From: Escherichia phage RB69
DNA: 64,000 bases
Sequence record: NC_004928.1
Direction: 5' to 3' (one strand)
The translations under genes were made by a program, and so were the position numbers. This document shows positions 2,520-44,361 of this stretch, piece by piece (the stretch's first letter is position 1; each line of letters begins with the position of its first letter). The notes beneath the pieces were generated by a model that saw only the letters and a program-made list of their open reading frames with translations, had not been told where the DNA came from and ran no database searches.

Positions 2520-3620
2520 TTACGCTGTGAAGATTTTATCCCACATCGCAACAACCGCATCTCGGTTATACTTCTTCCATACTGCTTCAGCACGTTTAAC
2601 TCGAGCTTCGTATGTGTCAGTGAATTCTAATACAGCTTTTATGTAAAGCGCAACTACTTCTTTTTTAGGAGTAGAGGAATCAATTTCTACACGCACAGTA
2701 TCTGGGTCGTATTCAAATGTCGCATGAGGATAATCCTTAAAAACTAACTGGATTACAGGGACACCTTTAGAGATGGCTTCAATAGAACTATTCTCTACCG
2801 TACCTGTGTCAGGACACGTATTAATAAGTGCTTTAGCTGTTTTAAGACGTTCCATAATTTCACTATGTGGAGCATCAATAATAACAGGATATTTAGCTGG
2901 TGGTGCCCATTTACTAGGACAGTATCCTGCACCATTTTCGCCTAGTGCTTTAATCGCTTCAAGAGCAACATCAGTACGACGCATTTTAGTGTCATAGCGT
3001 TGTGCACTAATAATCAGATCAGTCGCCGGAAGAACTTCAGGTTTCTCATTCAAACAAATAACCGGATAATCTTCGGCTTCAAACAACGGATTTGCTCGCC
3101 AATAATCATAATCGATTTTGTCAGTCAGACCTGAAGTCATATAACAATATTTGCGTTCAAATTCACGGAAGGCTTTAGTAGGAGCATAACTCTTACCACC
3201 ATTCTTATGAATTTGAATAGTCTGGTCCCAAATTTGAACAATGCCACGAGATACCGGTTCAAATGGTGTTGCCATAAAATTCTTATGAACTTTAGAGAGA
3301 CCTGCGTCTTTAATTGCCTGAACGGTTAGTTTAGTCGGTTCCATAGTAACAACAAAATCGTATTCATGGATGCCGGCTAGTTCAACAATCTTACGAGCCA
3401 TAGTATAACTCATACCTAGACTGAATTTAGTCAGATGACCAACAGGATGATGATTAACCTTCCAATCACCAAATGTGTCATTATCAAAGCCAATATAATC
3501 AATATCAGCACCGATGGACACAAGATATTTCAACACATTTAAATGTACTGCTTCAAGACCACCTTGTACACGGTCAGGGTTAAATGGGACTGCGCGAGAT
3601 GGGATAAACATAACTTTCAT
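2520..3620 (-). CDS. candidate sugar transferase for DNA modification (position of T4 mobA)
   Basis: 366-aa ORF between rIIA.1 and gene 39; no endonuclease motifs; transferase-sized; function inferred from context. Confidence 0.4.
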   Translation of the reverse strand: MKVMFIPSRAVPFNPDRVQGGLEAVHLNVLKYLVSIGADIDYIGFDNDTFGDWKVNHHPVGHLTKFSLGMSYTMARKIVELAGIHEYDFVVTMEPTKLTVQAIKDAGLSKVHKNFMATPFEPVSRGIVQIWDQTIQIHKNGGKSYAPTKAFREFERKYCYMTSGLTDKIDYDYWRANPLFEAEDYPVICLNEKPEVLPATDLIISAQRYDTKMRRTDVALEAIKALGENGAGYCPSKWAPPAKYPVIIDAPHSEIMERLKTAKALINTCPDTGTVENSSIEAISKGVPVIQLVFKDYPHATFEYDPDTVRVEIDSSTPKKEVVALYIKAVLEFTDTYEARVKRAEAVWKKYNRDAVVAMWDKIFTA

Positions 3621-15450: not shown

Positions 15451-15972
15451 TTAGTAACCTCGGTCTTGGCGAGCGAAGTTTTCAGCATTCTTCAGGTAAT
15501 ACAGTTTGAAGATTTCTTCAGCAGTGAGTCCAAGACCCTGGAACATATTCAGAACAAAGTGCAGAATATCAATCATTTCGAATTTAATTTCGAGCTGGTC
15601 TTCAGGAGACAGTTCATCGATACGACGATTTCGATATTCAGCATGTTGTGCCTTCCACGGCTTCCACACAGAAGAGGCAGCTTTCTCGCCGTTGCTCATA
15701 CCGCCAAGTGAAGTCAGCAGTTCACGAAATTCATCATCAATATAATCTTTCTGATTACGCAACCAATCAACAACATCGCCAGCAGTAGCCAATTCATCAG
15801 GATGTTTGTTATGTTCAGGCTTGTCATTTGCTAAGCGAACCTGTAAAGATTTCTGCATATCAAGCATTACCTGCAGTGGGTCTTTATCTTCGTGAATCAG
15901 AGCATTAAAATAAGCTTCTTCTGCTTTATCAACACCAGAAATAAGTTGTGAACATTCGTTAAAGTGTGCCAT
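15451..15972 (-). CDS. 56: dCTP pyrophosphatase gp56 (MazG-like)
   Basis: ORF track extends to 15987 from a TTG; the ATG start at MAHFNEC matches the T4 gp56 N-terminus. Confidence 0.85.
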   Translation of the reverse strand: MAHFNECSQLISGVDKAEEAYFNALIHEDKDPLQVMLDMQKSLQVRLANDKPEHNKHPDELATAGDVVDWLRNQKDYIDDEFRELLTSLGGMSNGEKAASSVWKPWKAQHAEYRNRRIDELSPEDQLEIKFEMIDILHFVLNMFQGLGLTAEEIFKLYYLKNAENFARQDRGY

Positions 15973-16060
15973 TATTTTTCCTTTCAATTCAGTATAAGAG
16001 AGTTAATTCTAACATTAATTTTATAAAGCGTAATAAATAATAGGTAACTAAGGAGATATT

Positions 16061-19010: not shown

Positions 19011-19259
19011 TTATTCTTTTTCGCGAATAATAATTACTTGTTGAGGCTGCTGAGCCGATTTCTTTTCGGCAACGATAGACCAAATTAAAGTTCCAATCCA
19101 ACCAACCATCGTCCAGTTAAAGAGTAAAGATACAAAGAAGATTGCTGTTGTGCTTTTTGTGCCACGAATAAGTGCGATTACCCAAGGCAACATGTAAATG
19201 ATGATTGAACCAATACCTGCGATTAAAACTGCTACTGAACTAGCTACGAATAATTCCAT
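19011..19259 (-). CDS. small integral membrane protein
   Basis: 82 aa; two hydrophobic helices. Confidence 0.5.
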   Translation of the reverse strand: MELFVASSVAVLIAGIGSIIIYMLPWVIALIRGTKSTTAIFFVSLLFNWTMVGWIGTLIWSIVAEKKSAQQPQQVIIIREKE

Positions 19260-19320
19260 GTTAATTTCCTCTTGATTTGTTATGTTTATAGTATCTTGTT
19301 TTAACTTTGGTGTAAACCAA

Positions 19321-19689
19321 TTAATTAAATTTGTTTAAACGTTCAATACACTGGACGTAGTTATTCGCGATTTGTTTCTGGGTAGGCTCTTTACCAGTTG
19401 TTTCAACATAGCGAATGAACGCGATTTCAGTAGCCTGTAAGCAATGTTCTTTAACGCGTTGTTCTTTTGACAATGCTACAGTATCAGAATCACGATAACG
19501 TTGAGCATGGGCATCAGCTTGAATCATTCGATTACCTACAGTAACCGGGTCTTCCACTTCAACTTTAGGTTGGTTGTACTGTTTAACATTCGGATTGTAA
19601 ATCAGTTGGCCAACGTTATTAGGGATAAAGCCATGGGCACCACATCCAGTTAATCCGAATACCATTGCTAAAGCGATTAATTTTTTCAT
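19321..19689 (-). CDS. predicted lipoprotein
   Basis: 122 aa; signal peptide with lipobox LTGC. Confidence 0.5.
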   Translation of the reverse strand: MKKLIALAMVFGLTGCGAHGFIPNNVGQLIYNPNVKQYNQPKVEVEDPVTVGNRMIQADAHAQRYRDSDTVALSKEQRVKEHCLQATEIAFIRYVETTGKEPTQKQIANNYVQCIERLNKFN

Positions 19690-22438: not shown

Positions 22439-22783
22439 TTAAAAGAATTTAAATTTTTTCTTGGCCCGTTCATTAAAAGCTTGTTGTACTTGCATTGTAA
22501 CACATTTTTCAACATGTGGTGCAAGTTCTGCCTTTTCTGTCCTGGTCAAGAACTGCAAAGTCCATTTCGATTTTACCATCAACCCAGTGCTAGTTTTGTA
22601 ATATAGACTTATATGATGGGAACCGTCTTCAAGTGTAATCAGAATCTCTTGAATGACATTTTCCATTGCCGAACGGATAATTTTAAGAGATTCATTAAAC
22701 ACTCGTTCTTTGCGAATGTCTTCCCCTTCCGAAGAAGGGGATTCATCAACGATTTCTAGATTTAAATCATCGAGATTATTCAT
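22439..22783 (-). CDS. 40: gp40-like head vertex assembly chaperone
   Basis: ORF track 22439..22804; start at Met8 gives 114 aa as in T4 gp40 and avoids overlap with uvsX. Confidence 0.5.
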   Translation of the reverse strand: MNNLDDLNLEIVDESPSSEGEDIRKERVFNESLKIIRSAMENVIQEILITLEDGSHHISLYYKTSTGLMVKSKWTLQFLTRTEKAELAPHVEKCVTMQVQQAFNERAKKKFKFF

Positions 22784-23948
22784 CGAAATCTTCCATTTCG
22801 TCAAGGTCGTTTTCTATATCTGCTGCAGACGGAGCATCAGAAGTTTTAACCGGAACTTTAGTTGTTGCTTTGCAATTAATAAGGTCGTTAACAGCGTCAT
22901 CAACTTCTTTAATAGAAGAGATAGCACCTAGTTTATATTTAGTTTCAATTGCATCTCGGAAAGGTTTGTGTTTAAACAACGGTCCCCAGAATTCTACACA
23001 ATCAGTAGCTTTAGCACGCCACGATTTCTCTTCACGAATCATTTCACCTGTTTCTTCGTCAAGGAATTCACGAGCATACCACCCGGCTTTAGGCTTAACC
23101 ACAAAACCGATTTCAGTTGCCATTTCTAACAAGCCACTGAATGGGTCGATACCACCATCAAAATTAACCGTGATTGGGAAAGTAGATTTTTCTTTAACGG
23201 TGCGAGATTTTTCTGCTTTCAACGTGAAGTCATAACCGGTCAATTCTGTACCTTCTTTAACCTGACGTTTAGAGATAAAAAATACCGTGTTGGCAGAATA
23301 AAGAATACCTGTACCACCACCCATAATCTCTTTAGGATACAATCCGCCAATTTCCATTGCTGTATGGTTGATTGCAACACATGGAATATCTTTAATAGTC
23401 AGATAAGGAGTCACAATGCGGAACAGAGATTTAAGTGCCTTAGCACGAGACATATCACCTACAACTTTCTCGTTCAATGCATCTTCAGTTTCTTTCTTAG
23501 ACGCAGTATTACCAATCGAGTCAATAAAGATAATAACTTTATCACCGCGTTCAATAGCGTCAAGCTGATTAGTCATATCAACTTTAAGTTGTTCGACAGA
23601 TTGAATCGGAGTATGAACTACACGGTCTAAATCAACACCCATTGAACGAAAATAAGATTCTGAAGCACCGAATTCTGAGTCATAAAACAAACAGATTGCA
23701 TCTTTATATTTCTTCATATACGCTGCAACCATAGTTAGTCCAAACAACGTTTTAAAGTGTTTAGAAGGAGCAGCAAAAATAGTTAAGCCTGATTGCAACC
23801 CTGCATTCAGTGCACCACCTAATGCAATATTCAACATCGGAATACGAGTAGGGACTTCATCGCGATTATTAAACAGCTTAGACTTAGTCAAGTCTGCAGT
23901 CATTTTAGAAGTAGAAGCTTTAATCAGACGAGATTTTAAATCAGACAT
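22776..23948 (-). CDS. uvsX: UvsX recombinase (RecA-like)
   Basis: 390 aa; matches T4 UvsX throughout. Confidence 0.9.
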   Translation of the reverse strand: MSDLKSRLIKASTSKMTADLTKSKLFNNRDEVPTRIPMLNIALGGALNAGLQSGLTIFAAPSKHFKTLFGLTMVAAYMKKYKDAICLFYDSEFGASESYFRSMGVDLDRVVHTPIQSVEQLKVDMTNQLDAIERGDKVIIFIDSIGNTASKKETEDALNEKVVGDMSRAKALKSLFRIVTPYLTIKDIPCVAINHTAMEIGGLYPKEIMGGGTGILYSANTVFFISKRQVKEGTELTGYDFTLKAEKSRTVKEKSTFPITVNFDGGIDPFSGLLEMATEIGFVVKPKAGWYAREFLDEETGEMIREEKSWRAKATDCVEFWGPLFKHKPFRDAIETKYKLGAISSIKEVDDAVNDLINCKATTKVPVKTSDAPSAADIENDLDEMEDFDE

Positions 23949-24046: not shown

Positions 24047-24595
24047 TTAACGAGCCCATTTGATGATTTCTGTAATCAAATCATTACGTTCGCTTGCATT
24101 AAATCCTATAACTTTGTTAGCACCATCATGATTAAGTAATTGATACGTTTGGATTTCGTTATGAATTGCAAACTCTTCAAAATGTGAAATGACTGTATTA
24201 AAACCGAATGAAGACAAAGTAATAAGGTCGTCTTCAAAACTTTCAGTCATTTCGTTACGTGTTAAAATAATTGTGAACACATCATGGTTTTGGCAAAGAC
24301 GAACATAATCCTGTTCATAAACGTCAAGAACCGAGTCCGCATCTTGTCGAATACGTCCATAAACCCAGTTACTAATATATCCACGATCTAACAGATAAAT
24401 CTTAGTAGGGTCTAAATAATTCAACATCGTTTCGAAACAGCCAACTTCATTTCGAGACTTAACATCAAAACGTCCATCAACTGTTCGTTTAGGGAAATCA
24501 ATCTTTACATATCTTTCACTAATTTCCATTATGTCATTAATGAAAGTTGTTTTACCAGCATTATCCGGGCCATCTACTAAAATAATTTTAGCCAT
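24047..24595 (-). CDS. P-loop NTPase, small kinase-like protein
   Basis: 182 aa; Walker A GPDNAGKTT at the N-terminus; sits where T4 has beta-glucosyltransferase. Confidence 0.5.
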   Translation of the reverse strand: MAKIILVDGPDNAGKTTFINDIMEISERYVKIDFPKRTVDGRFDVKSRNEVGCFETMLNYLDPTKIYLLDRGYISNWVYGRIRQDADSVLDVYEQDYVRLCQNHDVFTIILTRNEMTESFEDDLITLSSFGFNTVISHFEEFAIHNEIQTYQLLNHDGANKVIGFNASERNDLITEIIKWAR

Positions 24596-24596
24596 T

Positions 24597-24947
24597 TTAT
24601 TCCTCGATTACGACATCTTCATATTTAGGTATATTATACGGCGAAGAAATTAAAGCGTTAAAGTAGATGAACTCACCAAGACCTGGATGGAATACTTCTT
24701 CAGGATTTTCGAAATATTGAATCTTCGGACGTCCTTTAAGAATTTGATAGTACTCAGTTTTAGTTGGTTTAAAAATTCGAATCAGCGCTTCTTCAGGATA
24801 CTTATTTCTGTCGAAGCTATTATTTGGATCGGTTATATAAAGCGGTTGGCCTAATTGAATTGCACATTCAACCACTTGTTCAAAACGATAGCACGGGTCA
24901 CTAATTCGAAATGGATGAAAAATACCATCTAGATGAATAGGAGCCAA
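24597..24947 (-). CDS. hypothetical protein
   Basis: 116-aa ORF. Confidence 0.45.
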   Translation of the reverse strand: MAPIHLDGIFHPFRISDPCYRFEQVVECAIQLGQPLYITDPNNSFDRNKYPEEALIRIFKPTKTEYYQILKGRPKIQYFENPEEVFHPGLGEFIYFNALISSPYNIPKYEDVVIEE

Positions 24948-24948
24948 A

Positions 24949-25497
24949 TCACACTACAAGACGCTGCATGATGGAAGGACGTATAACTTTCTGCGTTACG
25001 ATAATCTTATTACCATCTGCACCTGCGTTAACCAGCACTTCTTTTTGACGTTCATTCAACACAGTAGTTTGAAGTGAACGATTAACCGACAACATATCGG
25101 TTTTTAAGAATTCGTCAATATAAAAACGTGGTTTATTAGGGTCTGCAGTGATATTGAAAATGAATTCCACATCAAAAGCGCCGTCATATCCAGTGATATC
25201 TGTGATTAGAAAATCACAATCATAATAAGCAATTAATGAATCAACCACAAATTCATTTTCAGACCAGAAATATTTACGAGTGTTATACGCGTTATCTTTA
25301 TACCATAATGGAACAAACTTAAATTCCGGGAAAAGACGTTCGCATTCTTTAATATCAGATGCATTACGTGGATATGTAATCACATCACCTGGATTAGCAC
25401 GGTGCAAATGAAGTTGGAAGTTGCCATCCTTAAGGATAGAATACTGTCCAGTTTCATAAGACCGCATACTCAAGATAGGTACGCGGAAAATAGCCAT
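24949..25497 (-). CDS. hypothetical protein
   Basis: 182-aa ORF. Confidence 0.45.
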   Translation of the reverse strand: MAIFRVPILSMRSYETGQYSILKDGNFQLHLHRANPGDVITYPRNASDIKECERLFPEFKFVPLWYKDNAYNTRKYFWSENEFVVDSLIAYYDCDFLITDITGYDGAFDVEFIFNITADPNKPRFYIDEFLKTDMLSVNRSLQTTVLNERQKEVLVNAGADGNKIIVTQKVIRPSIMQRLVV

Positions 25498-26213
25498 TAG
25501 TCAAGGAATCCTTTAACATAATCAAAATCACGTTCAAACACATGGGCACTTACCATGGTATGAGTATAATCACCAACTTCTACACCACATTCGTTAGCGA
25601 TATAATGAAGTAATTTTCCTTGGAGATAAAAATCCAACTGCATAACAACAGCACAGTTCTGGGAACGCATATGGCAGTGGGTATAAAGCTTACCATCACG
25701 AATATAATAAGTCACTGAGTCAGTACATGGATATTCAAGCGTTTCGTCCGAATCAAGCAAAGCCTGATCAGAACTTTCTAGAATTTGGAACACAACTCTT
25801 CGGGAGTTAGGCTTCTCTTTAAGTTCTTTTAGAAGAGCTGGTAATTGGGCCGCAATGCGAGGACCGTAGAAAGTGTTGAAGTTTGCAGGCAAAGCGTCTG
25901 ATTTAGGTTTAGAAATAAATTTAGCAACGTTAGGATATGCCTTAAACGCTTCTTCTGCATCAGTACCACCAGAAATCATAAACTTCCAGAAGTCTTCGGC
26001 ATATTCATAAGAGATGCGGTTAATACGTGGGTCGGTCATTTTGAATGATGATGGAGTGTCAACAACTACTGTCATAGACCCAATTTCATTACAACGTCCA
26101 ATACGAGAATCAGTTACGAATTCCGGGTTTTCTAAAATTTCACGATTGACTGCTTTAAATGCGGTTTGAAAATCTGCGGCTTTGATATATTTCATTGTGT
26201 TATGTTTTCCCAT
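25497..26213 (-). CDS. 42: deoxypyrimidine-nucleotide hydroxymethylase (gp42-like, thymidylate-synthase fold), divergent
   Basis: 238 aa; catalytic region EYPCTDSVTYYIRDGKLYTHCHMRSQN aligns with T4 gp42 FMCTNTVQYLIRD...MRSND. Confidence 0.6.
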   Translation of the reverse strand: MGKHNTMKYIKAADFQTAFKAVNREILENPEFVTDSRIGRCNEIGSMTVVVDTPSSFKMTDPRINRISYEYAEDFWKFMISGGTDAEEAFKAYPNVAKFISKPKSDALPANFNTFYGPRIAAQLPALLKELKEKPNSRRVVFQILESSDQALLDSDETLEYPCTDSVTYYIRDGKLYTHCHMRSQNCAVVMQLDFYLQGKLLHYIANECGVEVGDYTHTMVSAHVFERDFDYVKGFLD

Positions 26214-26255
26214 GTTTACCTCAATACAATTTATTATATACTCAATTCATAAAGC

Positions 26256-26495
26256 TTATTTGAATTTCTTAGCGATGTTGATATAACGTAAAGCTTCAGC
26301 ATCGATATTTCCAAGAACACTATGAAGAAATGCATCAGCGTAGTATTCCAATTGAACAGGTTCTTTAATCACTTTAGCCGCTTTAGTTTCAAACAGGCCC
26401 ATCAGGGCCTTTTTAAGAATTTGTTCGTTGCTGTTAATTTTCATAGTCAAAATCTCTTCATTAAGTTGGTGGTTAAAAGTTTTTCTAGAAATCAT
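26256..26495 (-). CDS. hypothetical protein
   Basis: 79-aa ORF. Confidence 0.4.
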   Translation of the reverse strand: MISRKTFNHQLNEEILTMKINSNEQILKKALMGLFETKAAKVIKEPVQLEYYADAFLHSVLGNIDAEALRYINIAKKFK

Positions 26496-27661
26496 TCTGG
26501 GTACCTCAAAGCGTCATCAGAGTTAGTTACATCAATAATAGATATAGAATTTTCTGATAACCCATTTTTAGATAACTGACGTTTATAATATCTTTCACAA
26601 TATGTACACGTCGTCCCGCAGATTTCATTAGCACAATCGAAATCTGGATGTCTGAACCACCTTTTTTCTAAAAAGCCATCTAACAAAGAGGTTTCAATAT
26701 TTACTGTATGTGAAAACTCAGTTTCGTTTTCAAGAGTGAAAATAGTCTCTAAAGGCTTCCACAGTTCTAACAAATTACCTTCAAACTTTTCAGAAGCGTA
26801 TGCTTCAAGAACTTTCAAAATGTAGTCTGTGCTACCTGTACGTCCTGAAACTTTGAATTGAGTGATACCAATATCATTATAAAGTTTCAAATCTTGAGGA
26901 CGAACAAAACGAGTTCTCAACCAGTTAAATGGGTCTGTATCACGAGCTTTAATACAGTGCTGCATAGGATATCCGTTTAAGGATTTAGCATCATCAGCTG
27001 TAACATCAGTACTATGGAAAATATAGCAAGAGTCACGATAGCTACAATGTGTTGTATACCCTTTACCAGCATTAGAACAGAACTCATTTACAAGAACTTC
27101 AAATATTATATTGTTCTTATTGCAAAACTCTGCTGCACGCTTCAGGAAAGAAACTGAACGGTTTTTATGAATTCCACAGCAGACCTTTTTGATATTATAT
27201 TGGTCATGCAAGTATTTGATTTGAGTTACAGCATCGACATGTAGAATTGTTGAAACTTCAATCTCAATGTCTTTATTGACTTCACGAACAATTTCCATAA
27301 CAACAGGGTTAGCGATAGTAATACGCCATACGCCTATTGACCAAAGATACTGAACATAATCCTGAATAGCTTTCTTCTTCCACTCAACTAGTTCTCTTTT
27401 TGAACCAGGATTTATCGTGTTGAGTGTATAGTTAAAGCAAATACCTAATTCGTTACAACGTTTAACGTAATCTTCTAACATCTTTTTGTCAACGTCAGGA
27501 AGCCTAAAATCAGGTCTGGCTGCTACAAAAGCCATTTCTCTTGTAGAGCCGTATACTTCGTTTATCAAGCTATTAGGATAAGTTTTATTGAGCTCTACGA
27601 TTTTATCAAGAAGAGCTAAATCAAAATTCGTTCCGATTTTAAAAGTATTCATTTTTTGCAT
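26492..27661 (-). CDS. U32-family-like protein with C-terminal Cys cluster
   Basis: 389 aa; N-terminal pattern EVYGS...FVAARPDF...LNT and cysteine-rich segments; weak, motif-level only. Confidence 0.4.
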   Translation of the reverse strand: MQKMNTFKIGTNFDLALLDKIVELNKTYPNSLINEVYGSTREMAFVAARPDFRLPDVDKKMLEDYVKRCNELGICFNYTLNTINPGSKRELVEWKKKAIQDYVQYLWSIGVWRITIANPVVMEIVREVNKDIEIEVSTILHVDAVTQIKYLHDQYNIKKVCCGIHKNRSVSFLKRAAEFCNKNNIIFEVLVNEFCSNAGKGYTTHCSYRDSCYIFHSTDVTADDAKSLNGYPMQHCIKARDTDPFNWLRTRFVRPQDLKLYNDIGITQFKVSGRTGSTDYILKVLEAYASEKFEGNLLELWKPLETIFTLENETEFSHTVNIETSLLDGFLEKRWFRHPDFDCANEICGTTCTYCERYYKRQLSKNGLSENSISIIDVTNSDDALRYPE

Positions 27662-27707
27662 CTCGCGTTAATTGATGCGATGGTTTTTGCAGGTCTTACT
27701 TAAATTA

Positions 27708-28109
27708 TTATAGATTCGGTTTATATGATTTAAATGTTTCGAATTCGCCTTTATTCATAAGAGCTTTGAATTCGTCAGGACGCATAGCTTTGTCGTCGAT
27801 AATCCAATCATATACTGGTTTATGTGTTAGCAAATTATGGTACTTCAAGCCAATGTTTGCCAAGTTCTGAATCAGACTTGGGAGAATGTCAATTGCTATA
27901 CGTCCAGGACCTACTGACTTCATACCGCGAGCAGTGTAAAGCGTTATGGTATGCCCTGCATCATACAGAGCATTAATGGCAGACACCATTTCGACGTCTG
28001 GTTTGAAGTTCACGTAATCACGATTGTTATTCCACTCTGTTATACAATCATCGACATCAAAACAAAGATTAAGCATGTTTTCTACATGGTGCATTAGATT
28101 CGTTCCCAT
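27708..28109 (-). CDS. HAD-superfamily phosphatase (small, KdsC-like)
   Basis: 133 aa; HAD motif I FDVDDCIT; true start may be Met12 near 28076. Confidence 0.55.
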   Translation of the reverse strand: MGTNLMHHVENMLNLCFDVDDCITEWNNNRDYVNFKPDVEMVSAINALYDAGHTITLYTARGMKSVGPGRIAIDILPSLIQNLANIGLKYHNLLTHKPVYDWIIDDKAMRPDEFKALMNKGEFETFKSYKPNL

Positions 28110-29134
28110 TGATGAGTGATATCGCCACCGATTGGACGATAAGAAACACCAGTTTCTTTATCGGTTAGTACCCATTTACCAGGATTTTTTGTAATCAGAG
28201 TAGCCGTTACAGGTTCTGCTACGTCATAACTAATAGAGCCGTCTTGAAGTACACGGCCCATGTTACGTAATTGCTTAGTCAGAAGTTCCATACCTTTATA
28301 ATACGCGGCTACCGCTTTAAGTGGATTATTCTTGAAATAACCACCTAATGCAATCCAGATAATTGCTACAGCCAAATGATGATACTCGTTAAACGAACTC
28401 ATCTTTCCATATTTGTAAACTAATGGATTGATGTTAATAGTCACATTACAAGTTGTTTCGTCAATAGTAAACTGTCCCCAGGTCGGATTAGCGTTGAATT
28501 CATCATAACCTGAAACGGCATAAAGCACTTTAGCTTCATCGTACAATTTTGGTCCGTAAATCTTGGTTTCGCCAAAATATCCACGAGGGTCGATAAACTT
28601 GACTTCGCCGTTATCAGTAATCATAGTATTACTGAAGTTCGGGTCACCGTGAATAACAGAGTACTGTCCCTGAGAACGGTTATGATAACGAATAAGGTGT
28701 TCTAAAGCTTGTTTCAGCATTGGCTTCAGACGTCCAATCTTAGTGTAGTTCACATGTGTGATTTTACCAAATGAATCAATCAATGGTTGAATGCTTTCAC
28801 AACGATCAATAACTTTCGTATAGAATTCTTTAGTGAAATCACGACGAACAGTTTCAGGACTTACAAAATAAGTGTCTGTGCTGAATTTCAGTGCATCTAA
28901 AATTGCATCAACAATTTGTGGACGAGCAAGACTTGATTTGGATTTAATATATTCAAATGCCGGCTTACCTTTAATGCGTTCCATTTCAAAGTTATTTTCA
29001 TTAACAGAAACTAACTGAGGAACTGAATCTGATTTCACTTTAAGATACCATGAAATCTCATCTTTCTGAAGAGCTCGACCATGTTCGGTTAATGCGAATT
29101 TAGTTACAGTTTCTTCACCAATTTCGAACTGCAT
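28094..29134 (-). CDS. sugar kinase of the aminoglycoside-phosphotransferase / choline-kinase fold
   Basis: catalytic loop HGDPNFSN; ORF track begins at a GTG (29191); ATG at Met20 used here; start uncertain. Confidence 0.55.
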   Translation of the reverse strand: MQFEIGEETVTKFALTEHGRALQKDEISWYLKVKSDSVPQLVSVNENNFEMERIKGKPAFEYIKSKSSLARPQIVDAILDALKFSTDTYFVSPETVRRDFTKEFYTKVIDRCESIQPLIDSFGKITHVNYTKIGRLKPMLKQALEHLIRYHNRSQGQYSVIHGDPNFSNTMITDNGEVKFIDPRGYFGETKIYGPKLYDEAKVLYAVSGYDEFNANPTWGQFTIDETTCNVTININPLVYKYGKMSSFNEYHHLAVAIIWIALGGYFKNNPLKAVAAYYKGMELLTKQLRNMGRVLQDGSISYDVAEPVTATLITKNPGKWVLTDKETGVSYRPIGGDITHQWERI

Positions 29135-29780
29135 TAAAACTACGATTAAGTTCACGAACTTCATGAGCTTTTTCAAGTTTAGGCATATCACCTAAATCAA
29201 TTAGATTCATAAGCTCTGATTTATTGAATGCACTGCCGTAAAGGAATTCTACGAAATCACGTCCTTTGCAGTATTCGTGAATTTCCTCATCAGTAGAACC
29301 CATGTAGAATTCCCAGTCTTTGAACTGATAAATTCCTACAACGTTACCGCCTGTTGAACCTACGTTAGTGATATTTTCACCATCGAAATTATATCGACAT
29401 TCATCACCCTTAACATAGATTGCGTTAACATTCCAAGACCATGAACCAAAATCAGGAATAATATCACACCAGTTAACAATTACGTTATGGCCATCTAAAT
29501 CTTTGTATAATTTAGCAAGAGCATAAGCAGAACCATACGCTTCATCAACTGTACGAATAGTCACATTGAACCCTTCTTGCTCACAATAAGCTCGAACAGT
29601 TTCAGCAAATTTTGAATGAACTACTACAATAATTTCATCTGCGCCAAGGTCAGAATAAATTGTATACAAATTGCTCAGAATAGTGTCTTGTTTATAGTTA
29701 ACAAGCACCTTAGGAATATGATGCGTTATTGGATACAAACGAGTTGCTAATCCAGCACCAAGAATAACAGCTTTTTTCAT
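29115..29780 (-). CDS. sugar-1-phosphate nucleotidyltransferase
   Basis: N-terminal AVILGAGLATRL motif; start at Met6 after GAGGA. Confidence 0.65.
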   Translation of the reverse strand: MKKAVILGAGLATRLYPITHHIPKVLVNYKQDTILSNLYTIYSDLGADEIIVVVHSKFAETVRAYCEQEGFNVTIRTVDEAYGSAYALAKLYKDLDGHNVIVNWCDIIPDFGSWSWNVNAIYVKGDECRYNFDGENITNVGSTGGNVVGIYQFKDWEFYMGSTDEEIHEYCKGRDFVEFLYGSAFNKSELMNLIDLGDMPKLEKAHEVRELNRSFNAVRNW

Positions 29781-29822
29781 GTTGAAGATCCTCATTGGTA
29801 AGTAGGTGTATTGTACACTATT

Positions 29823-29966
29823 CTAGTTAAAGCATTCATACTTTGCTTGTAGTCCAATCATAATCCATCCAATTACAAGTGTTGGAATCATTACTGGAGC
29901 CGTTAAGCTCCAGTAGATAGTCATGACAAGCATCAATAGTAAAAGTCCTATTGTTATTGCTTTCAT
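29823..29966 (-). CDS. small hydrophobic membrane protein
   Basis: 47 aa translated by hand (MKAITIGLLLLMLVMTIYWSL...); ATG overlaps the upstream TGA as ATGA. Confidence 0.35.
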   Translation of the reverse strand: MKAITIGLLLLMLVMTIYWSLTAPVMIPTLVIGWIMIGLQAKYECFN

Positions 29967-30598
29967 TGTTCGCCTCGTAACATAGCACCTAGTGCACCGC
30001 CTGGATGGAACTTAAGGAAGTCATTAGAGGTAAATCCACGTTCAGACGAAAGGTTGATAGCAAACGTATCGATAAGCGCTAACAACAATGTAGTGGACAT
30101 AGTCGGAGCCAGAGAATTCTCATCAACCTCTACCGCGATGCCTGTACAGAAAGAGTAATCAAAAAGGGCTTCATTTTCTTGTGGAATGTCTGGGTTACAA
30201 TGCAACAGAATCTGTTTGACGTTCGGTCGAATCATTTTAAGATGCTTAGCCACGCCTATCATTTCTTCAGTTTTACCAGAACGACTAATATGAATCAACA
30301 CGTCATTAGGCGCAATAAATCCTGCATCACCGTGAGAATAATGCCCAGTGTTCAAGTACATACTCGGGATACCGAGTGAAGCAAATGTCTCAGAAGCTTT
30401 AGTTGCAATATTAGCATTCTTACCAACACCTGTAATAATTACTCGGCTTTCATAATTACTAAGTCCCGGGCGTCGAAGAGTTTCTAGAATAGCATTATAA
30501 CGAGCAGGGTTTTGACTAATTACTTTGGCCATAGCGGCCAAAGAAGAAGCTTGTTTTATGATTGCGTCAATAGCGATAGTAATAGGAGTAGTTTTCAT
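29963..30598 (-). CDS. SIS-domain sugar-phosphate isomerase (arabinose-5-phosphate isomerase-like)
   Basis: 211 aa; SIS motifs VIITGVGKNANIATKASETF and HISRSGKTEE. Confidence 0.7.
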   Translation of the reverse strand: MKTTPITIAIDAIIKQASSLAAMAKVISQNPARYNAILETLRRPGLSNYESRVIITGVGKNANIATKASETFASLGIPSMYLNTGHYSHGDAGFIAPNDVLIHISRSGKTEEMIGVAKHLKMIRPNVKQILLHCNPDIPQENEALFDYSFCTGIAVEVDENSLAPTMSTTLLLALIDTFAINLSSERGFTSNDFLKFHPGGALGAMLRGEQ

Positions 30599-30638: not shown

Positions 30639-33350
30639 TCAAAAATCGAACATATCGAACAGAGATGCTTTCTTCTCGTAATCGAGTTTCGCTGCTGATG
30701 TGAATCCTTCAAGTGGTTTAATAAATGTCTTCTCAAGGAGAACAGTGTAGTCCATCCAATGAAGTACGTCGTCTTTAATTAAATCTGTGATTTCAGTACC
30801 AGAAGGCCATGCGATACATTTATCACCGAATGGGTTTCCTTCACGTAAAGGCAGAACATATACTTTTTCACCTTCTACAACTTGTGGTGCATCAATATTA
30901 CCTTTGATAGCTCGGTTATATGTCAGAATTCCACGAATATGGAACGGGCATTTGGGACCAGGGAATCCACCTACGTCATATTTAGCAATGTTATTCGCAG
31001 AAGATACCGACGCGATGCTAATATAATTCAATTGACGGAATTCTTTTTCAAACTCTTTAAAATATTCTTGTAATGATTCTTCACCTTCTTGAAGCATACG
31101 ACGAATACATTCTTTAAGAGCTTTCTGTACTGCTTTAGGAGTCGAAGATTTCTGAGTCTCTAGACCCATGATTTTGAGTTTAGGCTCAGCGTAACGAGTA
31201 CCTTCCATATCCCACACGTTTAATGCATAACGTTTCTTACCAGTCCAAAATCCGCCAATACCTTTAGAACCAAGCGGAGGCCCAGCGATAGCTTCTCGGT
31301 CCATGAACATTAAGTGTTGTTTATTGTTCATGTATTCACACATTTCACGGAAACCTCTATCAATAGCTGGTTCCATACGTTCACGTGCAAACTTATCTAA
31401 GAAGTCTACCCAATGGTTGGTATCACGGAATTTAGATTCACCAACCTTATCGATAATTTTATCAGCAGATACGTAAATAGAGTCTGTATCACCATAAAGA
31501 ACGAAAGCTTCACCTTCTGTACCACAAACTTCATTCAGATATTCATTAACTTTACGTTCAATCCACTGTAAAGCCATTTGCCCGAATGTTGTGATTGCAG
31601 TAGCATTACGCAAATCATAATAACGGAACCAAACGTTGCCAAGTGCACCATAAAGTGAGTTGATAAGCAATTTACGGTTAATTTGTGCAGTCATACCTGC
31701 AACTTCAGTACGTTGAGCTCTAAACAACATTTCATTAAGAGATTTAGCAGACAACTTTTTAATCTTTTCTTTAATCTCATCGCTGAAGTCGAAACGATAA
31801 TCAACATCTAATGGTTCGTCAACAGAAAGATTAGGATTATGCAATGCCTCTTTAATTATTTCACCATTACGTTGAGCTGCAAGCATGTAACCTTTATGTT
31901 CTTTACGTTGATTAAAGACCTTAGTGATTTCAGTTGGAACTACACCATCACGGTCTTTATAATACATCATGCCGTTAGGAGAACAACTGTACACATCAGA
32001 AGGACGTTCAGCAACAGCGTTAATATAATCATGCAATGGAGCTACTTTAAACGTTCCTGCTATTGTTTCTGGGCTAATATTCACTTGGCGAATAATACTT
32101 GGATATAGAGATGTAAGGTCGAAACTCATTACATATTTGTATCGATTTGGAATAGGTTCCTTAACAAAAGCGCCGGGATAAGGTTGAACCGGGTGAGAAC
32201 GACCTTGTGGAATCACCTTGTTCTGCTCTTTAAGGCTATTAAAAATAATAGCATCCCATGTTTTAATTGGGCTAAACACAGATTGAATCTGTATCTTAGC
32301 ATAATAACCCATGTCCAAACTCAAGTTGATGAACTGACGCTTAGCATCAATTTGCAATACACGATACACGTCGATAATGTTATAAGAAATATATCGTTGG
32401 TGATTGCTTTCACGAAGCTTAGAAATAGGGCCGTCATATTTCAGTTTACCAACGTTCAATTCAAATTCTGAAATGTAATCCAGAGAATACGACGGTTGAT
32501 TGGTAAAAGAGAATTTTTTGTAAAGGTCAATGTAATCAAGAACAGAGATACCGAACAATGTAATGATTTCACGAGAACCATACATGTTTTCGATAACTTT
32601 AACACGAGTTTTACGATGTGGTGATAAACGTTTCGCAGTTGATTCGCCAAAAATATTCTTGATTCGGTTATACACGTACGGAATATCAAATGACTCAACG
32701 TTCCATCCAGTCAAAATGACAGGAGTTTTCTGTTGCCAGAAGTTGAGATATTCCATCAACAATTCTTTTTCGTTATCGAACGGCATATAAATGATTTTAT
32801 CAATAATTTCAGATGGAACTTCATCACCACCTTGTTCTTGAAGCTTAGCAGCGATTTCAATAGACCATTCTTCTACATTACCATATGGAGAATTCAATAG
32901 ATCAAATACGTAGAACCTGTCGTCAATTGAGTCATAATGGGTGATAGCATCAATCGGATGTTTTGCTTGTGACGGCTCAGGGAACCCATCCGGAGATGTT
33001 ACTTCGATGTCGAAGTTAGCCACACGAATTTTTGTATGGTCGTATTTGATTTCATAGTTATAAGTGTCAGACAAATACGCCAATTTGAAATCGTCCATGC
33101 CAAGTGCTTCAAGTCCGATATCTTCCATGCGTTTAATCCATTGGGAGGCATCACGCATATTAGCGAACAACTTACGAGTACACGGTTTACCGTAGATATC
33201 GAAATATTTCGTAGCCTGACTTTCTGGACAATGAGCAAACAGTGATGGTTTATATTCTACTTCACGAGTACGTTCACGGCCATTAGAATCGATGTAACGT
33301 TCAAAAATTGAATCACCAATCTGTTCAACCGTTAAGTAAAATTCTTTCAT
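30639..33350 (-). CDS. 43: DNA polymerase gp43 (family B)
   Basis: 903 aa; exonuclease motif FDIEV, polymerase motifs DxxSLYPS and YGDTDS. Confidence 0.95.
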   Translation of the reverse strand: MKEFYLTVEQIGDSIFERYIDSNGRERTREVEYKPSLFAHCPESQATKYFDIYGKPCTRKLFANMRDASQWIKRMEDIGLEALGMDDFKLAYLSDTYNYEIKYDHTKIRVANFDIEVTSPDGFPEPSQAKHPIDAITHYDSIDDRFYVFDLLNSPYGNVEEWSIEIAAKLQEQGGDEVPSEIIDKIIYMPFDNEKELLMEYLNFWQQKTPVILTGWNVESFDIPYVYNRIKNIFGESTAKRLSPHRKTRVKVIENMYGSREIITLFGISVLDYIDLYKKFSFTNQPSYSLDYISEFELNVGKLKYDGPISKLRESNHQRYISYNIIDVYRVLQIDAKRQFINLSLDMGYYAKIQIQSVFSPIKTWDAIIFNSLKEQNKVIPQGRSHPVQPYPGAFVKEPIPNRYKYVMSFDLTSLYPSIIRQVNISPETIAGTFKVAPLHDYINAVAERPSDVYSCSPNGMMYYKDRDGVVPTEITKVFNQRKEHKGYMLAAQRNGEIIKEALHNPNLSVDEPLDVDYRFDFSDEIKEKIKKLSAKSLNEMLFRAQRTEVAGMTAQINRKLLINSLYGALGNVWFRYYDLRNATAITTFGQMALQWIERKVNEYLNEVCGTEGEAFVLYGDTDSIYVSADKIIDKVGESKFRDTNHWVDFLDKFARERMEPAIDRGFREMCEYMNNKQHLMFMDREAIAGPPLGSKGIGGFWTGKKRYALNVWDMEGTRYAEPKLKIMGLETQKSSTPKAVQKALKECIRRMLQEGEESLQEYFKEFEKEFRQLNYISIASVSSANNIAKYDVGGFPGPKCPFHIRGILTYNRAIKGNIDAPQVVEGEKVYVLPLREGNPFGDKCIAWPSGTEITDLIKDDVLHWMDYTVLLEKTFIKPLEGFTSAAKLDYEKKASLFDMFDF

Positions 33351-43873: not shown

Positions 43874-44088
43874 TTTGTTTTCCTCTGTGGTAGATGATGC
43901 TAATCTTAACATATCTATCGAGGATGTAAACTGTTTTATGAAAATATTTTTGATTTGAGAGGGGCACAAGGAGATAGTGAAGTGAAGATTCCAATGGATT
44001 ATATTAGAAATGAGATAAAGAAGACCAGGCGGCACCTGGTCAATCTTCTATGATATCAGAGTCGTATCCTAATGAAATCAAGGACTTT

Positions 44089-44361
44089 TTAAACTCTGCA
44101 ATATCTTTGTTTCTTATCATTTAAAAATATGACAGGATAACGAATATTAAGTGAAGTGAATCCTGCACGTTTAGCAAGAGATACGATTAAAGGACGGTCA
44201 TATTCAATCTTACCATTATTAGTGAGGACTTTATAAAATGTATAAGGAGCATTGAGCTCCTTTAAAAGTTTTGTAACAGTATAACATCCTGGACAACGTC
44301 CAACTTCTTCAGGGATGCCATATATTTCAATCTTGTTCTTTAAGTTCGAGTTTTGTTCCAC
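44089..44361 (-). CDS. nrdH: thioredoxin-fold glutaredoxin-like protein (NrdH-like)
   Basis: CPGC active site after a short beta-strand (KIEIYGIP); no in-frame ATG, so GTG start at 44361 assumed. Confidence 0.45.
   Translation of the reverse strand: MEQNSNLKNKIEIYGIPEEVGRCPGCYTVTKLLKELNAPYTFYKVLTNNGKIEYDRPLIVSLAKRAGFTSLNIRYPVIFLNDKKQRYCRV

What the first reader, a model, noticed from the sequence alone, without database searches (positions are those of the whole stretch)
24047..30598. Candidate DNA hypermodification system: sugar-nucleotide pathway where T4 has its glucosyltransferases
Between uvsX and the DNA polymerase gene, T4 has beta-gt, gene 42 and imm. Here that block is larger and different. 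It holds a divergent gp42-like hydroxymethylase (25497..26213), a SIS-domain isomerase (29963..30598), a small HAD phosphatase (27708..28109), a phosphotransferase-fold kinase (28094..29134) and a sugar-1-phosphate nucleotidyltransferase (29115..29780), tightly packed with overlapping stops and starts. It also holds a P-loop kinase-like protein and a U32-like protein. No alpha- or beta-glucosyltransferase homologue sits at the T4 positions, since 47 runs almost directly into the 55 region. The enzyme set is what is needed to go from a pentose phosphate to an activated NDP-sugar, so the phage probably decorates hydroxymethylated pyrimidines with a sugar other than glucose. I recall reports of arabinosyl-hmC in RB69-type phages; this cluster would be its natural genetic basis, though I cannot confirm what has been assigned experimentally.
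Basis: partly seen in the sequence, partly recalled or inferred. Interest (0 to 1): 0.85.

Follow-up and report, generated by a model that had tools for sequence, protein, structure and literature searches.

The report
RB69 arabinosyl-hydroxycytosine DNA modification genes
This is the already published gene cluster that lets phage RB69 replace every cytosine in its DNA with an arabinose-decorated 5-hydroxycytosine, and its one unexplained gene may be an oxygen-independent way of making that base.

Summary
The window is the RB69 reference sequence. The same block is 95-99% identical in about 150 phage genomes.

The sugar-nucleotide reading is correct: an arabinose-5-phosphate isomerase, a kinase fused to a pyrophosphorylase, and a HAD phosphatase make NDP-arabinose.

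The base chemistry is wrong. The "gp42-like hydroxymethylase" carries the D169N signature of the flavin/O2-dependent 5-hydroxy-dCMP synthase. RB69 DNA carries arabinosyl-5-hydroxycytosine, not arabinosyl-hmC (Lee 2026, revising Thomas 2018).

- The first arabinosyltransferase lies inside the block, split by one extra base.
- The kinase and nucleotidyltransferase ORFs are one gene, also split by one extra base.
- A second transferase lies at 2520-3620.

The finding as written is already known.

One gene remains unassigned in the papers I could read: the U32 protein. It keeps the residues essential in RlhA, the bacterial cytidine C5 hydroxylase. In 28 unrelated metagenomic phage loci it sits beside homologues of the transferase and sugar genes, with no hydroxylase-type ThyA homologue in the DNA I hold. 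In four of these loci it sits near a chorismate mutase, which makes prephenate. I propose it is an oxygen-independent hydroxylase.

The parts
24047..24595 (-). RB69 ORF045c: P-loop nucleotide kinase-like protein, 182 aa, Walker A motif GPDNAGKTT. Its substrate is unknown.
   Evidence: ORF. PHROG thymidylate kinase 1.6e-45. Only sub-threshold Pfam and NCBIfam hits. 46% identical to DLP3 gp78 and 38% to the Dhakavirus counterpart. Lee 2026 Table 1 lists it as 'nucleotide kinase'.
24597..25497 (-). RB69 ORF046c and ORF047c together: one GT-B glycosyltransferase of 299 aa, the proposed first (base-proximal) arabinosyltransferase. In this sequence one extra base at 24953 splits it into ORFs of 116 and 182 aa.
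   Evidence: Alignment to a relative shows a single 1-base insertion. Removing it gives a 299-aa protein 98.7-99.3% identical to the intact genes of three relatives. AF2 model pLDDT 93.2, continuous across the junction. Foldseek matches UDP-sugar GT-B enzymes 5ze7, 3c4q and 6kih. No Pfam or NCBIfam hit. Lee 2026 calls the split a sequencing error.
25497..26213 (-). RB69 gp48: thymidylate-synthase-family 5-hydroxy-dCMP synthase, dependent on flavin and O2. It is not a hydroxymethylase.
   Evidence: Pfam Thymidylat_synt 2.4e-15. 24.8% identical to T4 gp42. Residues in E. coli numbering: C146 kept, L143E, N177D, D169N, Y209F; T4 gp42 keeps D169 and Y209. Activity, FMN and 18O2 labelling are shown in PMC13326640.
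26256..26495 (-). RB69 ORF049c: 79-aa protein of unknown function. Its start overlaps the stop of the U32 gene.
   Evidence: ORF. phrog_8601, unknown function. No Pfam hit even at E<1. Found in only 5 of 16 T4-like loci that have U32.
26492..27661 (-). RB69 gp50: U32-family protein with ten conserved cysteines. No role is given for it in the papers I could read. Proposed here to be an O2-independent, prephenate-dependent pyrimidine C5 hydroxylase.
   Evidence: Pfam Peptidase_U32 7.4e-11. Weak NCBIfam UbiU hit. E188, C195 and C212 correspond to RlhA E161, C169 and C176. C-terminal CX4CX3CX2C motif invariant in 121 homologues. AF2 pLDDT 92.9, best PDB match the U32 protein 5d88. Genomic associations.
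27708..28109 (-). RB69 gp51: small HAD-like phosphatase, counterpart of AfhF, proposed to convert arabinose-1,5-bisphosphate to arabinose-1-phosphate. Relatives start it at 28094.
   Evidence: NCBIfam TIGR01689 capsule biosynthesis phosphatase 4.3e-13, below cut-off. phrog_1238 1e-42. No Pfam hit. 59% identical to DLP3 gp81. Function by analogy in PMC13326640.
28094..29780 (-). RB69 ORF053c and ORF052c together: one bifunctional 561-aa enzyme, counterpart of AfhE. The N-terminal part is a sugar-1-phosphate nucleotidyltransferase and the C-terminal part an APH-fold kinase. One extra base at 29126 splits it here.
   Evidence: 1-base insertion relative to a relative. The repaired ORF is full length. 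Pfam NTP_transferase 1.3e-9 plus weak kinase hits. phrog_4098 covers residues 1-561. Thomas 2018 resequenced the region and found the extra C absent.
29823..29966 (-). RB69 ORF054c: 47-aa hydrophobic protein of unknown function, between the isomerase and the bifunctional gene.
   Evidence: ORF. phrog_3610 6.8e-27. Conserved in most T4-like loci.
29963..30598 (-). RB69 gp55: SIS-domain arabinose-5-phosphate isomerase of the KdsD/GutQ type, converting ribulose-5-P to arabinose-5-P.
   Evidence: Pfam SIS 1e-10. NCBIfam KpsF/GutQ 2e-32 and KdsD 7e-31, both below equivalog cut-offs. phrog_5670 4e-116.
2520..3620 (-). RB69 ORF003c: second arabinosyltransferase, 366 aa, between rIIA and the topoisomerase gene. 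It lies outside the finding's coordinates.
   Evidence: ORF. phrog_8302. 43% and 41% identical to DLP3 gp77 and gp76. Proposed as the arabinosyltransferase in PMC6024577 and as beta-arabinosyltransferase 2 in PMC13326640.
15451..15987 (-). NTP pyrophosphohydrolase, the dCTPase (T4 gp56) counterpart. It lies outside the finding's coordinates.
   Evidence: phrog_173 nucleoside triphosphate pyrophosphohydrolase 1.3e-45. It sits just upstream of the primase gene. Lee 2026 lists RB69p028 as a dCTPase. That it keeps unmodified dCTP out of the DNA is my inference from T4 gp56.

Best explanation
The block is the arabinosyl-5-hydroxycytosine hypermodification cluster of phage RB69. It works in three parts.

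Base:
- The ThyA homologue (25497..26213) hydroxylates dCMP at C5, using a flavin and O2. This is shown in the literature.
- The phage dNMP kinase and host enzymes raise the product to the triphosphate. The polymerase then incorporates it in place of dC.
- The dCTPase-like gene at 15451..15987 would remove dCTP. This step is my inference from T4 gp56.

Sugar:
- The SIS isomerase turns ribulose-5-P into arabinose-5-P.
- The C-terminal kinase half of the 561-aa fusion protein adds a phosphate at C1.
- The HAD phosphatase removes the 5-phosphate.
- The N-terminal half of the fusion protein makes UDP-arabinofuranose.
- These four steps are shown for homologues in phage HY126, as cited by Lee 2026. 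For RB69 they are inferred.

Transfer:
- The 299-aa GT-B enzyme (24597..25497) is proposed to put the first alpha-arabinose on the 5-hydroxyl.
- ORF003c (2520..3620) is proposed to add the second. Both assignments are inferred.

The two split genes are single-base errors in the old reference sequence.

The U32 protein has no role in the papers I could read. My inference is that it provides a second, O2-independent route to the 5-hydroxyl, using prephenate as the oxygen donor. That would let the phage modify its DNA in an anoxic gut. I rate this part at about 0.55.
For: Identity of the window:
- The gp43 and cluster ORFs map one to one to RB69 ORF045c-055c in the notes of the JS09 record.
- The window carries the extra C that Thomas 2018 showed to be an error.

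Domains and signatures:
- The 5hodCMP-synthase residues are E143, C146, N169 and D177.
- No T4 glucosyltransferase homologue is present.
- The two frameshifts can be repaired to full-length proteins.
- The first transferase has a GT-B fold.
- The second transferase is homologous to DLP3 gp76 and gp77.
- The same cluster is present in Acinetobacter phage DLP3 and in a Dhakavirus.

Chemistry and enzymology from the literature:
- PMC13326640 and PMC13390438.

For the U32 inference:
- The family precedents RlhA, TrhP and UbiU/UbiV are prephenate-dependent (UbiU/V and TrhP O2-independent) hydroxylases; RlhA and UbiU/V are shown or genetically inferred to need Fe-S clusters. Two of them hydroxylate C5 of a pyrimidine.
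- The residues essential in RlhA are conserved.
- In 28 non-T4-like phage loci, U32 lies in operons with homologues of the first transferase (19 of 28), a Tmk-like kinase (17 of 28), and the AfhE-like (10), SIS (9) and HAD (8) proteins.
- None of those loci has a hydroxylase-type ThyA homologue in the DNA I hold.
- Six of the 28 loci have a DAHP synthase near U32. Four of these are fused to a chorismate mutase domain.
- gp48 needs O2, yet the phage carries the anaerobic reductase gene nrdG.
Against: - None of the RB69 sugar-pathway enzymes or transferases was assayed in RB69 itself. Lee 2026 saw no activity for single DLP3 transferases on 5hoC DNA.
- The HAD and kinase assignments rest on sub-threshold profile hits plus published structure comparisons.
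- Lee 2026 Table 1 tentatively labels U32 'sugar or heterocycle reductase'.
- E. coli Dhakaviruses and Acinetobacter phages have the cluster without U32, so U32 is dispensable for the modification at least in air.
- Sequence similarity of U32 to RlhA, TrhP and UbiU is weak: 18 bits against a UbiU cut-off of 440, and 7 to 16 bits in hmmsearch for RlhA, TrhP and UbiU (UbiV about -1.5 bits).
- Only 8-10 kb on each side of the metagenomic loci was examined. A ThyA-type hydroxylase could lie elsewhere on those genomes.
- Two key papers (He 2026, Mahler 2025) could not be read.
Confidence: 0.9

Rival explanations
1. A gp42-like dCMP hydroxymethylase makes hmC, and the cluster attaches arabinose to the hydroxymethyl group (arabinosyl-hmC).
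For: Thomas 2018 named the modification ara-hmC, from released arabinose and mass data. The enzyme is a ThyA-family homologue of T4 gp42 with the dCMP-specifying N177D change.
Against: The enzyme has N at position 169 where T4 gp42 has D. The MS/MS base fragment is m/z 128.05, not 142.06. NMR shows Araf C1 linked to cytosine C5 through oxygen. Expressing gp48 in E. coli yields 5hodC carrying 18O from 18O2. PMC13390438 calls the hmC assignment erroneous.
Confidence: 0.04
2. The U32 protein acts on the sugar or as a reductase, for example in shaping the arabinose donor. It has nothing to do with base hydroxylation.
For: Lee 2026 Table 1 labels it 'sugar or heterocycle reductase'. BASEL-collection records annotate it 'putative enzyme involved in UDP-arabinose biosynthesis'. 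In ten metagenomic loci it sits at the end of the SIS, AfhE and HAD sugar operon.
Against: In nine loci the operon is only Tmk-like kinase, transferase and U32, with no sugar-pathway genes. DLP3 and Dhakaviruses make or encode the arabinose pathway without U32. In the papers I read, no U32 member is a sugar enzyme or reductase. The characterised ones are hydroxylases. A nearby chorismate mutase fits a need for prephenate, not sugar chemistry.
Confidence: 0.25
3. The two split genes are real frameshift mutations, so this phage has a crippled pathway.
For: The window as given carries an extra base in each gene. A 2-base gap also disrupts nrdH.
Against: Thomas 2018 re-amplified and sequenced the 52/53 region from RB69. 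The extra C was absent, and a single band of about 64 kDa was expressed. RB69 DNA is fully mono- and di-arabinosylated. All three relatives examined have intact genes. The 24953 site itself has not, to my knowledge, been resequenced. Lee 2026 only asserts that it is an error.
Confidence: 0.03

Closest known systems
[quoted passage not shown]
   Same: This is that system, and the window is the RB69 reference sequence. The ThyA-type 5hodCMP synthase, the A5P isomerase, the AfhE-like bifunctional enzyme, the AfhF-like phosphatase and two GT-B transferases are all present.
   Different: Nothing differs for the core. Compared with DLP3 and the Dhakaviruses, RB69-type phages add the U32 gene and, in some, ORF049c. 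They carry two rather than three transferases.
T4 glucosyl-hydroxymethylcytosine system (gp42, alpha-gt, beta-gt, gp56, gp1)
   Same: Same genomic slot between uvsX and gene 43. Same logic: a ThyA-family enzyme modifies dCMP before replication, and a GT-B transferase adds sugar afterwards. By analogy with T4 gp56, a dCTPase homologue removes dCTP.
   Different: The enzyme makes a hydroxyl (flavin and O2), not a hydroxymethyl (folate). The sugar is arabinofuranose made by the phage, not host UDP-glucose. There is no sequence homologue of alpha-gt or beta-gt.
U32-family O2-independent hydroxylases: RlhA (ho5C2501 in 23S rRNA), TrhP (ho5U34 in tRNA), UbiU/UbiV (ubiquinone)
   Same: Pfam U32 domain. 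Counterparts of RlhA E161, C169 and C176. Further conserved cysteines, including a C-terminal cluster as in RlhA. The chemistry needed, C5 hydroxylation of a pyrimidine, is what RlhA and TrhP do.
   Different: It is a separate, phage-only subfamily, far below the equivalog cut-offs. It is about 360-390 aa and lacks the DUF3656 domain of RlhA. The substrate would be a deoxynucleotide or DNA. No activity has been tested.
Rhizobium phage RL38J1 glycosyl-5-hydroxycytosine system
   Same: A ThyA-type 5hodCMP synthase plus several transferases. One metagenomic U32 locus (L015) also carries a UDP-galactopyranose mutase, as RL38J1 does.
   Different: RL38J1 uses hexoses and has no arabinose genes. No U32 hit was seen among Rhizobium phage records.

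Membership tests
Arabinosyl-5-hydroxycytosine cluster (RB69/DLP3/HY126 type) | ThyA-family enzyme with catalytic Cys, N177D, L143D/E and the D169N signature of 5hodCMP synthases | tested here: met
   C146, E143, D177 and N169 in the window protein. The same residues occur in DLP3 gp80 and the Dhakavirus protein. T4 gp42 has D169.
Arabinosyl-5-hydroxycytosine cluster (RB69/DLP3/HY126 type) | SIS-domain arabinose-5-phosphate isomerase | tested here: met
   Pfam SIS 1e-10. NCBIfam KpsF/GutQ 2e-32 and KdsD 7e-31. 58% identical to DLP3 gp83.
Arabinosyl-5-hydroxycytosine cluster (RB69/DLP3/HY126 type) | Single bifunctional nucleotidyltransferase and kinase protein (AfhE-like) | tested here: met
   Met after removing one base at 29126. 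The result is 561 aa, 57% identical to DLP3 gp82, with NTP_transferase and weak APH-like hits. As the raw sequence stands, it is two ORFs.
Arabinosyl-5-hydroxycytosine cluster (RB69/DLP3/HY126 type) | HAD-type phosphatase (AfhF-like) | tested here: inconclusive
   No Pfam hit. NCBIfam TIGR01689 at 4e-13 is below its cut-off. 59% identical to DLP3 gp81. The HAD fold is reported from structure comparison in PMC13326640.
Arabinosyl-5-hydroxycytosine cluster (RB69/DLP3/HY126 type) | GT-B transferase next to the ThyA gene, plus at least one further transferase | tested here: met
   The repaired 299-aa protein gives an AF2 model with pLDDT 93.2 and GT-B matches. ORF003c at 2520..3620 is 41-43% identical to DLP3 gp76 and gp77.
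Arabinosyl-5-hydroxycytosine cluster (RB69/DLP3/HY126 type) | Virion DNA carries Araf-O-5-cytosine | not testable with these tools
   Taken from the MS/MS, NMR and 18O2 data in PMC13326640 and from PMC13390438.
T4-type glucosyl-hmC system | Homologue of alpha- or beta-glucosyltransferase | tested here: not met
   tblastn of T4 a-gt and b-gt against the whole window: best E 2.8-3.8.
T4-type glucosyl-hmC system | dCMP hydroxymethylase retaining Asp at ThyA position 169 | tested here: not met
   The window protein has Asn. It is only 24.8% identical to T4 gp42.
U32 Fe-S prephenate-dependent hydroxylases (RlhA, TrhP, UbiU/V) | Peptidase_U32 domain above Pfam's cut-off | tested here: met
   PF01136, 42.2 bits against a cut-off of 22.4. 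Best PDB fold match is the U32 protein 5d88.
U32 Fe-S prephenate-dependent hydroxylases (RlhA, TrhP, UbiU/V) | Counterparts of RlhA E161, C169 and C176, which are essential for ho5C formation, and a conserved set of four or more Cys | tested here: met
   E188 and C212 fall in columns invariant across all 14 aligned sequences. C195 is one column off RlhA C169 in that alignment. Ten Cys are 98-100% conserved in 121 homologues. Cluster geometry was not checked.
U32 Fe-S prephenate-dependent hydroxylases (RlhA, TrhP, UbiU/V) | Equivalog-level similarity to a characterised member | tested here: not met
   NCBIfam UbiU 18.4 bits against a cut-off of 440. The subfamily HMM scores 16, 10, 7 and -1.5 bits on TrhP, RlhA, UbiU and UbiV. 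It is a distinct subfamily.
U32 Fe-S prephenate-dependent hydroxylases (RlhA, TrhP, UbiU/V) | Hydroxylase activity that needs prephenate and not O2 | not testable with these tools
   Only indirect evidence. A DAHP synthase lies near U32 in 6 of 28 metagenomic loci, 4 of them fused to a chorismate mutase domain.

The most novel reading that the evidence does not exclude
The U32 protein (26492..27661) would be an oxygen-independent, prephenate-dependent C5 hydroxylase of deoxycytidylate or of cytosine in DNA. It would be the anaerobic twin of the O2/flavin-dependent ThyA-type 5hodCMP synthase encoded next to it. In a large set of uncultured phages that have a homologue of the first transferase, and often the sugar genes, but no ThyA-type hydroxylase nearby, it would be the only hydroxylase. 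This would be the first DNA-directed member of the RlhA/TrhP/UbiUV class. It would define a second, widespread route to glycosylated 5-hydroxypyrimidines in phage DNA. I could not read He 2026 or Mahler 2025, so I cannot exclude that they already assign this gene.
Probability: 0.5. Interest if true: 0.75.

Novelty: already known. Interest (0 to 1): 0.35.

Why it matters
As written, the finding rediscovers a published system. Its value is as a check: a tool-less reading found the right cluster and the right sugar logic, but the wrong base chemistry.

What could matter is the leftover gene. The known hydroxylase needs molecular oxygen. Yet these phages infect gut bacteria, encode a dCTPase homologue expected, as in T4, to destroy dCTP, and carry anaerobic ribonucleotide reductase genes. 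An oxygen-independent hydroxylase would explain how they replicate without air.

It would also extend prephenate-dependent hydroxylation from RNA and quinones to DNA. And it would give a marker (U32 beside a GT-B transferase and a Tmk-like kinase) for finding hypermodified DNA in uncultured phages of anaerobes.

Tried and rejected
- RB69's own records (NC_004928, AY303349) are not in the phage collection, so identity had to be argued indirectly.
- Searching PDB sequences with the U32 protein found nothing.
- Foldseek against PDB gave only the uncharacterised U32 protein 5d88 and generic TIM barrels. The AlphaFold-database library was not available. Closeness to RlhA, TrhP or UbiU could therefore not be judged by fold.
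- I considered whether ORF049c could be a small chorismate mutase that supplies prephenate. It has no CM_2 or any other Pfam hit even at E<1 and lacks the motif, so I rejected this.
- I first read the DAHP_synth_1 neighbour of U32 as a possible Kdo-8-P synthase, because an A5P isomerase is nearby. NCBIfam scores favour DAHP synthase by more than 20 orders of magnitude, and four copies carry a chorismate mutase domain, so I rejected this too.
- A simple host rule (U32 only in phages of facultative anaerobes) holds for Acinetobacter and Rhizobium phages. It fails for E. coli Dhakaviruses, which lack U32.
- He 2026 and Mahler 2025 are not held. No held paper links U32 with phage DNA modification.

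Full report
**What is there**

Between uvsX (22776..23948) and DNA polymerase gene 43 (30639..33350), the minus strand carries a tight run of ORFs.

Pfam assigns four of them above its curated cut-offs:
- 25497..26213 to Thymidylat_synt (2.4e-15);
- 26492..27661 to Peptidase_U32 (7.4e-11);
- 29115..29795 to NTP_transferase (3.2e-10);
- 29963..30598 to SIS (1e-10).

The other assignments are weaker:
- The kinase ORF has only sub-threshold APH-, fructosamine-kinase- and RIO-like hits.
- The small "HAD" ORF has no Pfam hit. It matches NCBIfam TIGR01689, a capsule-biosynthesis phosphatase of the HAD type, at 4e-13.
- The SIS protein matches KpsF/GutQ and KdsD arabinose-5-phosphate isomerases at 2e-32 and 7e-31.
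- The first ORF matches PHROG "thymidylate kinase" at 1.6e-45.

The 6.5-kb block is present over at least 80% of its length in 150 phage records, nearly all at 95-99% identity. These are mostly Escherichia and Shigella Mosigviruses.

**Which phage**

The window is the RB69 reference sequence.
- The ORFs map one to one to RB69 ORF045c-055c in the notes of the JS09 record.
- The window begins at the end of rIIA, with ORF003c and the topoisomerase gene following.
- It carries the extra cytosine that Thomas et al. reported as an error in the GenBank entry.
- RB69's own accessions are absent from the searchable collection.

In three relatives, the window ORFs 24597..24947 and 24949..25497 are one 900-bp gene, and 28094..29191 and 29115..29795 are one 1686-bp gene. 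Alignment shows one extra base in the window in each case, at 24953 and at 29126.

Removing these bases gives two proteins:
- a 299-aa protein 98.7-99.3% identical to the relatives' gene;
- a full-length 561-aa protein.

Thomas et al. resequenced the second site from phage stock. The base was absent, and they expressed a single protein of about 64 kDa. Lee et al. treat both splits as sequencing errors.

The repaired 299-aa protein has no profile hit. It nevertheless folds with pLDDT 93.2, continuously across the junction, into a GT-B fold. That fold matches UDP-sugar transferases: BH4 glucosyltransferase 5ze7, MshA 3c4q and sucrose-phosphate synthase 6kih.

A second transferase, ORF003c, lies at 2520..3620. 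It is 41-43% identical to DLP3 gp76 and gp77.

**The T4 comparison**

T4 a-gt and b-gt have no homologue anywhere in the window (best E 2.8-3.8). Gene 47 (to 39991) and gene 55 (from 40991) are about 1 kb apart, with only small ORFs between them. The same gap in T4 is 3.15 kb. T4's imm and imm.1 have moved to 19014..19683.

**The base is not hmC**

The ThyA homologue is only 24.8% identical to T4 gp42. I aligned it with E. coli ThyA and T4 gp42, using E. coli numbering.
- It keeps the catalytic C146.
- It has L143E and N177D, as T4 gp42 does.
- It has Asn at D169, where T4 gp42 keeps Asp.
- It has Phe at Y209.
- DLP3 gp80 and the Dhakavirus protein share all of these.

Lee et al. 2026 name D169N as the signature of 5-hydroxy-dCMP synthases. 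Their experimental evidence is as follows:
- The MS/MS base fragment is m/z 128.05.
- NMR shows Araf C1 bonded through oxygen to cytosine C5.
- Expressing RB69 gp48 yields 5hodC that takes up 18O from 18O2.
- The enzyme carries FMN.

A second paper states that the ara-hmC assignment was erroneous. The arabinose part is.

**How the sugar is made**

According to Lee 2026, citing He 2026 on phage HY126, the route has four steps:
1. ribulose-5-P to arabinose-5-P, by the SIS isomerase;
2. to arabinose-1,5-bisphosphate, by the kinase half of the fusion protein;
3. to arabinose-1-P, by the HAD phosphatase;
4. to UDP-arabinofuranose, by the nucleotidyltransferase half.

For RB69 these steps are inferred from homology. 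My searches agree with the folds but do not test activity.

**The leftover gene**

The U32 protein appears only in a table of Lee 2026, as "sugar or heterocycle reductase", and is not discussed there. It is not discussed in the Thanatos or Durham papers either. No held paper links U32 with phage DNA modification.

The characterised U32 proteins are all hydroxylases:
- RlhA is required for 5-hydroxycytidine (ho5C2501) in 23S rRNA, which needs prephenate and Fe-S cluster biogenesis.
- TrhP is required for prephenate-dependent formation of 5-hydroxyuridine in tRNA, alongside an O2-dependent alternative, TrhO.
- UbiU/UbiV hydroxylate ubiquinone precursors without O2. Prephenate is the oxygen donor.

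The phage protein shares key features with them:
- It keeps the counterparts of the RlhA residues shown to be essential. E188 and C212 fall in invariant alignment columns. C195 is one column off C169.
- Ten cysteines are 98-100% conserved in 121 homologues. They include a C-terminal CX4CX3CX2C motif.
- The AF2 model is confident (pLDDT 92.9), and its best PDB match is the U32 protein 5d88.

At sequence level, however, it is a distinct subfamily, far below the equivalog cut-offs.

**Genomic associations of U32**

Among cultured phages, U32 is found in 220 records. All of those listed infect Enterobacterales or Shewanella. The ThyA-type hydroxylase is found in 372 records, including 57 Acinetobacter and 20 Rhizobium phages. 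DLP3 and an E. coli Dhakavirus have the cluster without U32.

Protein and IMG/VR searches found a large set of homologues 40-58% identical in uncultured phages. I examined 28 such loci, with 8-10 kb on each side. They fall into three arrangements:
- Nine loci have the operon Tmk-like kinase, homologue of the first RB69 transferase, U32, beside a DnaE-type polymerase.
- Ten loci have transferase, SIS isomerase, AfhE-like enzyme, often a Tmk-like kinase and a HAD phosphatase, then U32. This is the RB69 cluster without the ThyA gene.
- Three loci have dCMP deaminase followed by U32.

Only one locus has a ThyA homologue. It is a canonical thymidylate synthase with L143, D169 and N177.

Six loci have a type I-beta DAHP synthase near U32. 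NCBIfam DAHP-synthase models score 1e-38 to 1e-70, against 1e-12 to 1e-17 for Kdo-8-P synthase. Four of the six carry a C-terminal chorismate mutase domain (Pfam CM_2 5e-20 to 2e-24). Chorismate mutase makes prephenate.

**Reading of the U32 gene**

The modification needs a C5 hydroxyl. The only known enzyme for it needs O2. The hosts live largely without O2, and the phage carries nrdG for anaerobic replication. The phage also encodes a dCTPase homologue, which I assume acts like T4 gp56.

A family whose known members perform this chemistry without O2 sits in the cluster. It recurs with the transferase where the ThyA enzyme is missing. It is sometimes paired with a prephenate-making enzyme.

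I therefore propose that it is an O2-independent hydroxylase, at about even odds.

Four things argue against this:
- The Dhakavirus counter-example.
- The weak sequence similarity to characterised members.
- The limited flanks I could examine.
- Two papers I could not read.

**Verdict**

The finding as written is a correct rediscovery of a published system, with the base chemistry wrong and the transferase overlooked. It is already known. The U32 hypothesis is the one part that may be new and is directly testable.

Noticed in passing
window 44043..44340 (minus strand), indel at 44104/44105: The nrdH (glutaredoxin) gene is frameshifted. The window lacks two bases that Shigella phage ESh15 has, so the protein ends early (…KKQRYCRV*) instead of continuing …KKQKNIAEFKKSLISLGYDSDIIED. 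This is probably a third error in the old reference sequence.
   Followed up: yes
window 19014..19683 (minus strand): Homologues of T4 imm (64% identical) and imm.1 (32%) lie upstream of gene 41, near sp and dmd, not between genes 42 and 43 as in T4. The modification cluster has taken their place.
   Followed up: partly
L043 8411-9433, L046 7302-8357, L048 8332-9387, L044 9-971: Uncultured phages encode DAHP synthase fused to chorismate mutase, within a DNA-modification operon that ends in U32. I know of no earlier report of shikimate-pathway enzymes in such an operon. It suggests the phage boosts the supply of prephenate.
   Followed up: partly
L015 11098-12000 and 15073-16179: In one metagenomic phage, U32 is followed by a weak Tet-associated-glycosyltransferase (TAGT) match, then a dUTPase/dCTP deaminase and a UDP-galactopyranose mutase. 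This looks like a different glycosylation system built around the same U32 gene.
   Followed up: no
L001 10003-10764 (Escherichia phage NRG-P0074): A close relative has a homing endonuclease gene inserted between the HAD phosphatase gene and the bifunctional gene. The window has no such insertion.
   Followed up: no
window 24047..30598 and public records H2-H40: Public annotations of this cluster are misleading. The bifunctional enzyme is called 'GlmU' or 'dCMP deaminase', the HAD phosphatase 'phosphoheptose isomerase', the 5hodCMP synthase 'thymidylate synthase' or 'dCMP hydroxymethylase', and U32 'peptidase'.
   Followed up: yes
window 29823..29966 (minus strand): A 47-aa strongly hydrophobic ORF (ORF054c, phrog_3610) is conserved between the isomerase and the bifunctional gene in most T4-like relatives. 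A membrane peptide inside a cytoplasmic sugar pathway is unexplained.
   Followed up: no
window 25497..26213, residue aligned with E. coli ThyA Y209: All three 5hodCMP-synthase-type proteins compared have Phe where ThyA and T4 gp42 have Tyr209. This is a second candidate signature residue besides D169N.
   Followed up: partly
window 26492..26630 (C-terminus of the U32 protein): The invariant C-terminal motif C343-X4-C348-X3-C352-X2-C355 contains a CX3CXYC stretch, which resembles the radical-SAM cluster motif. With four cysteines it is more likely an auxiliary Fe-S or zinc site.
   Followed up: no
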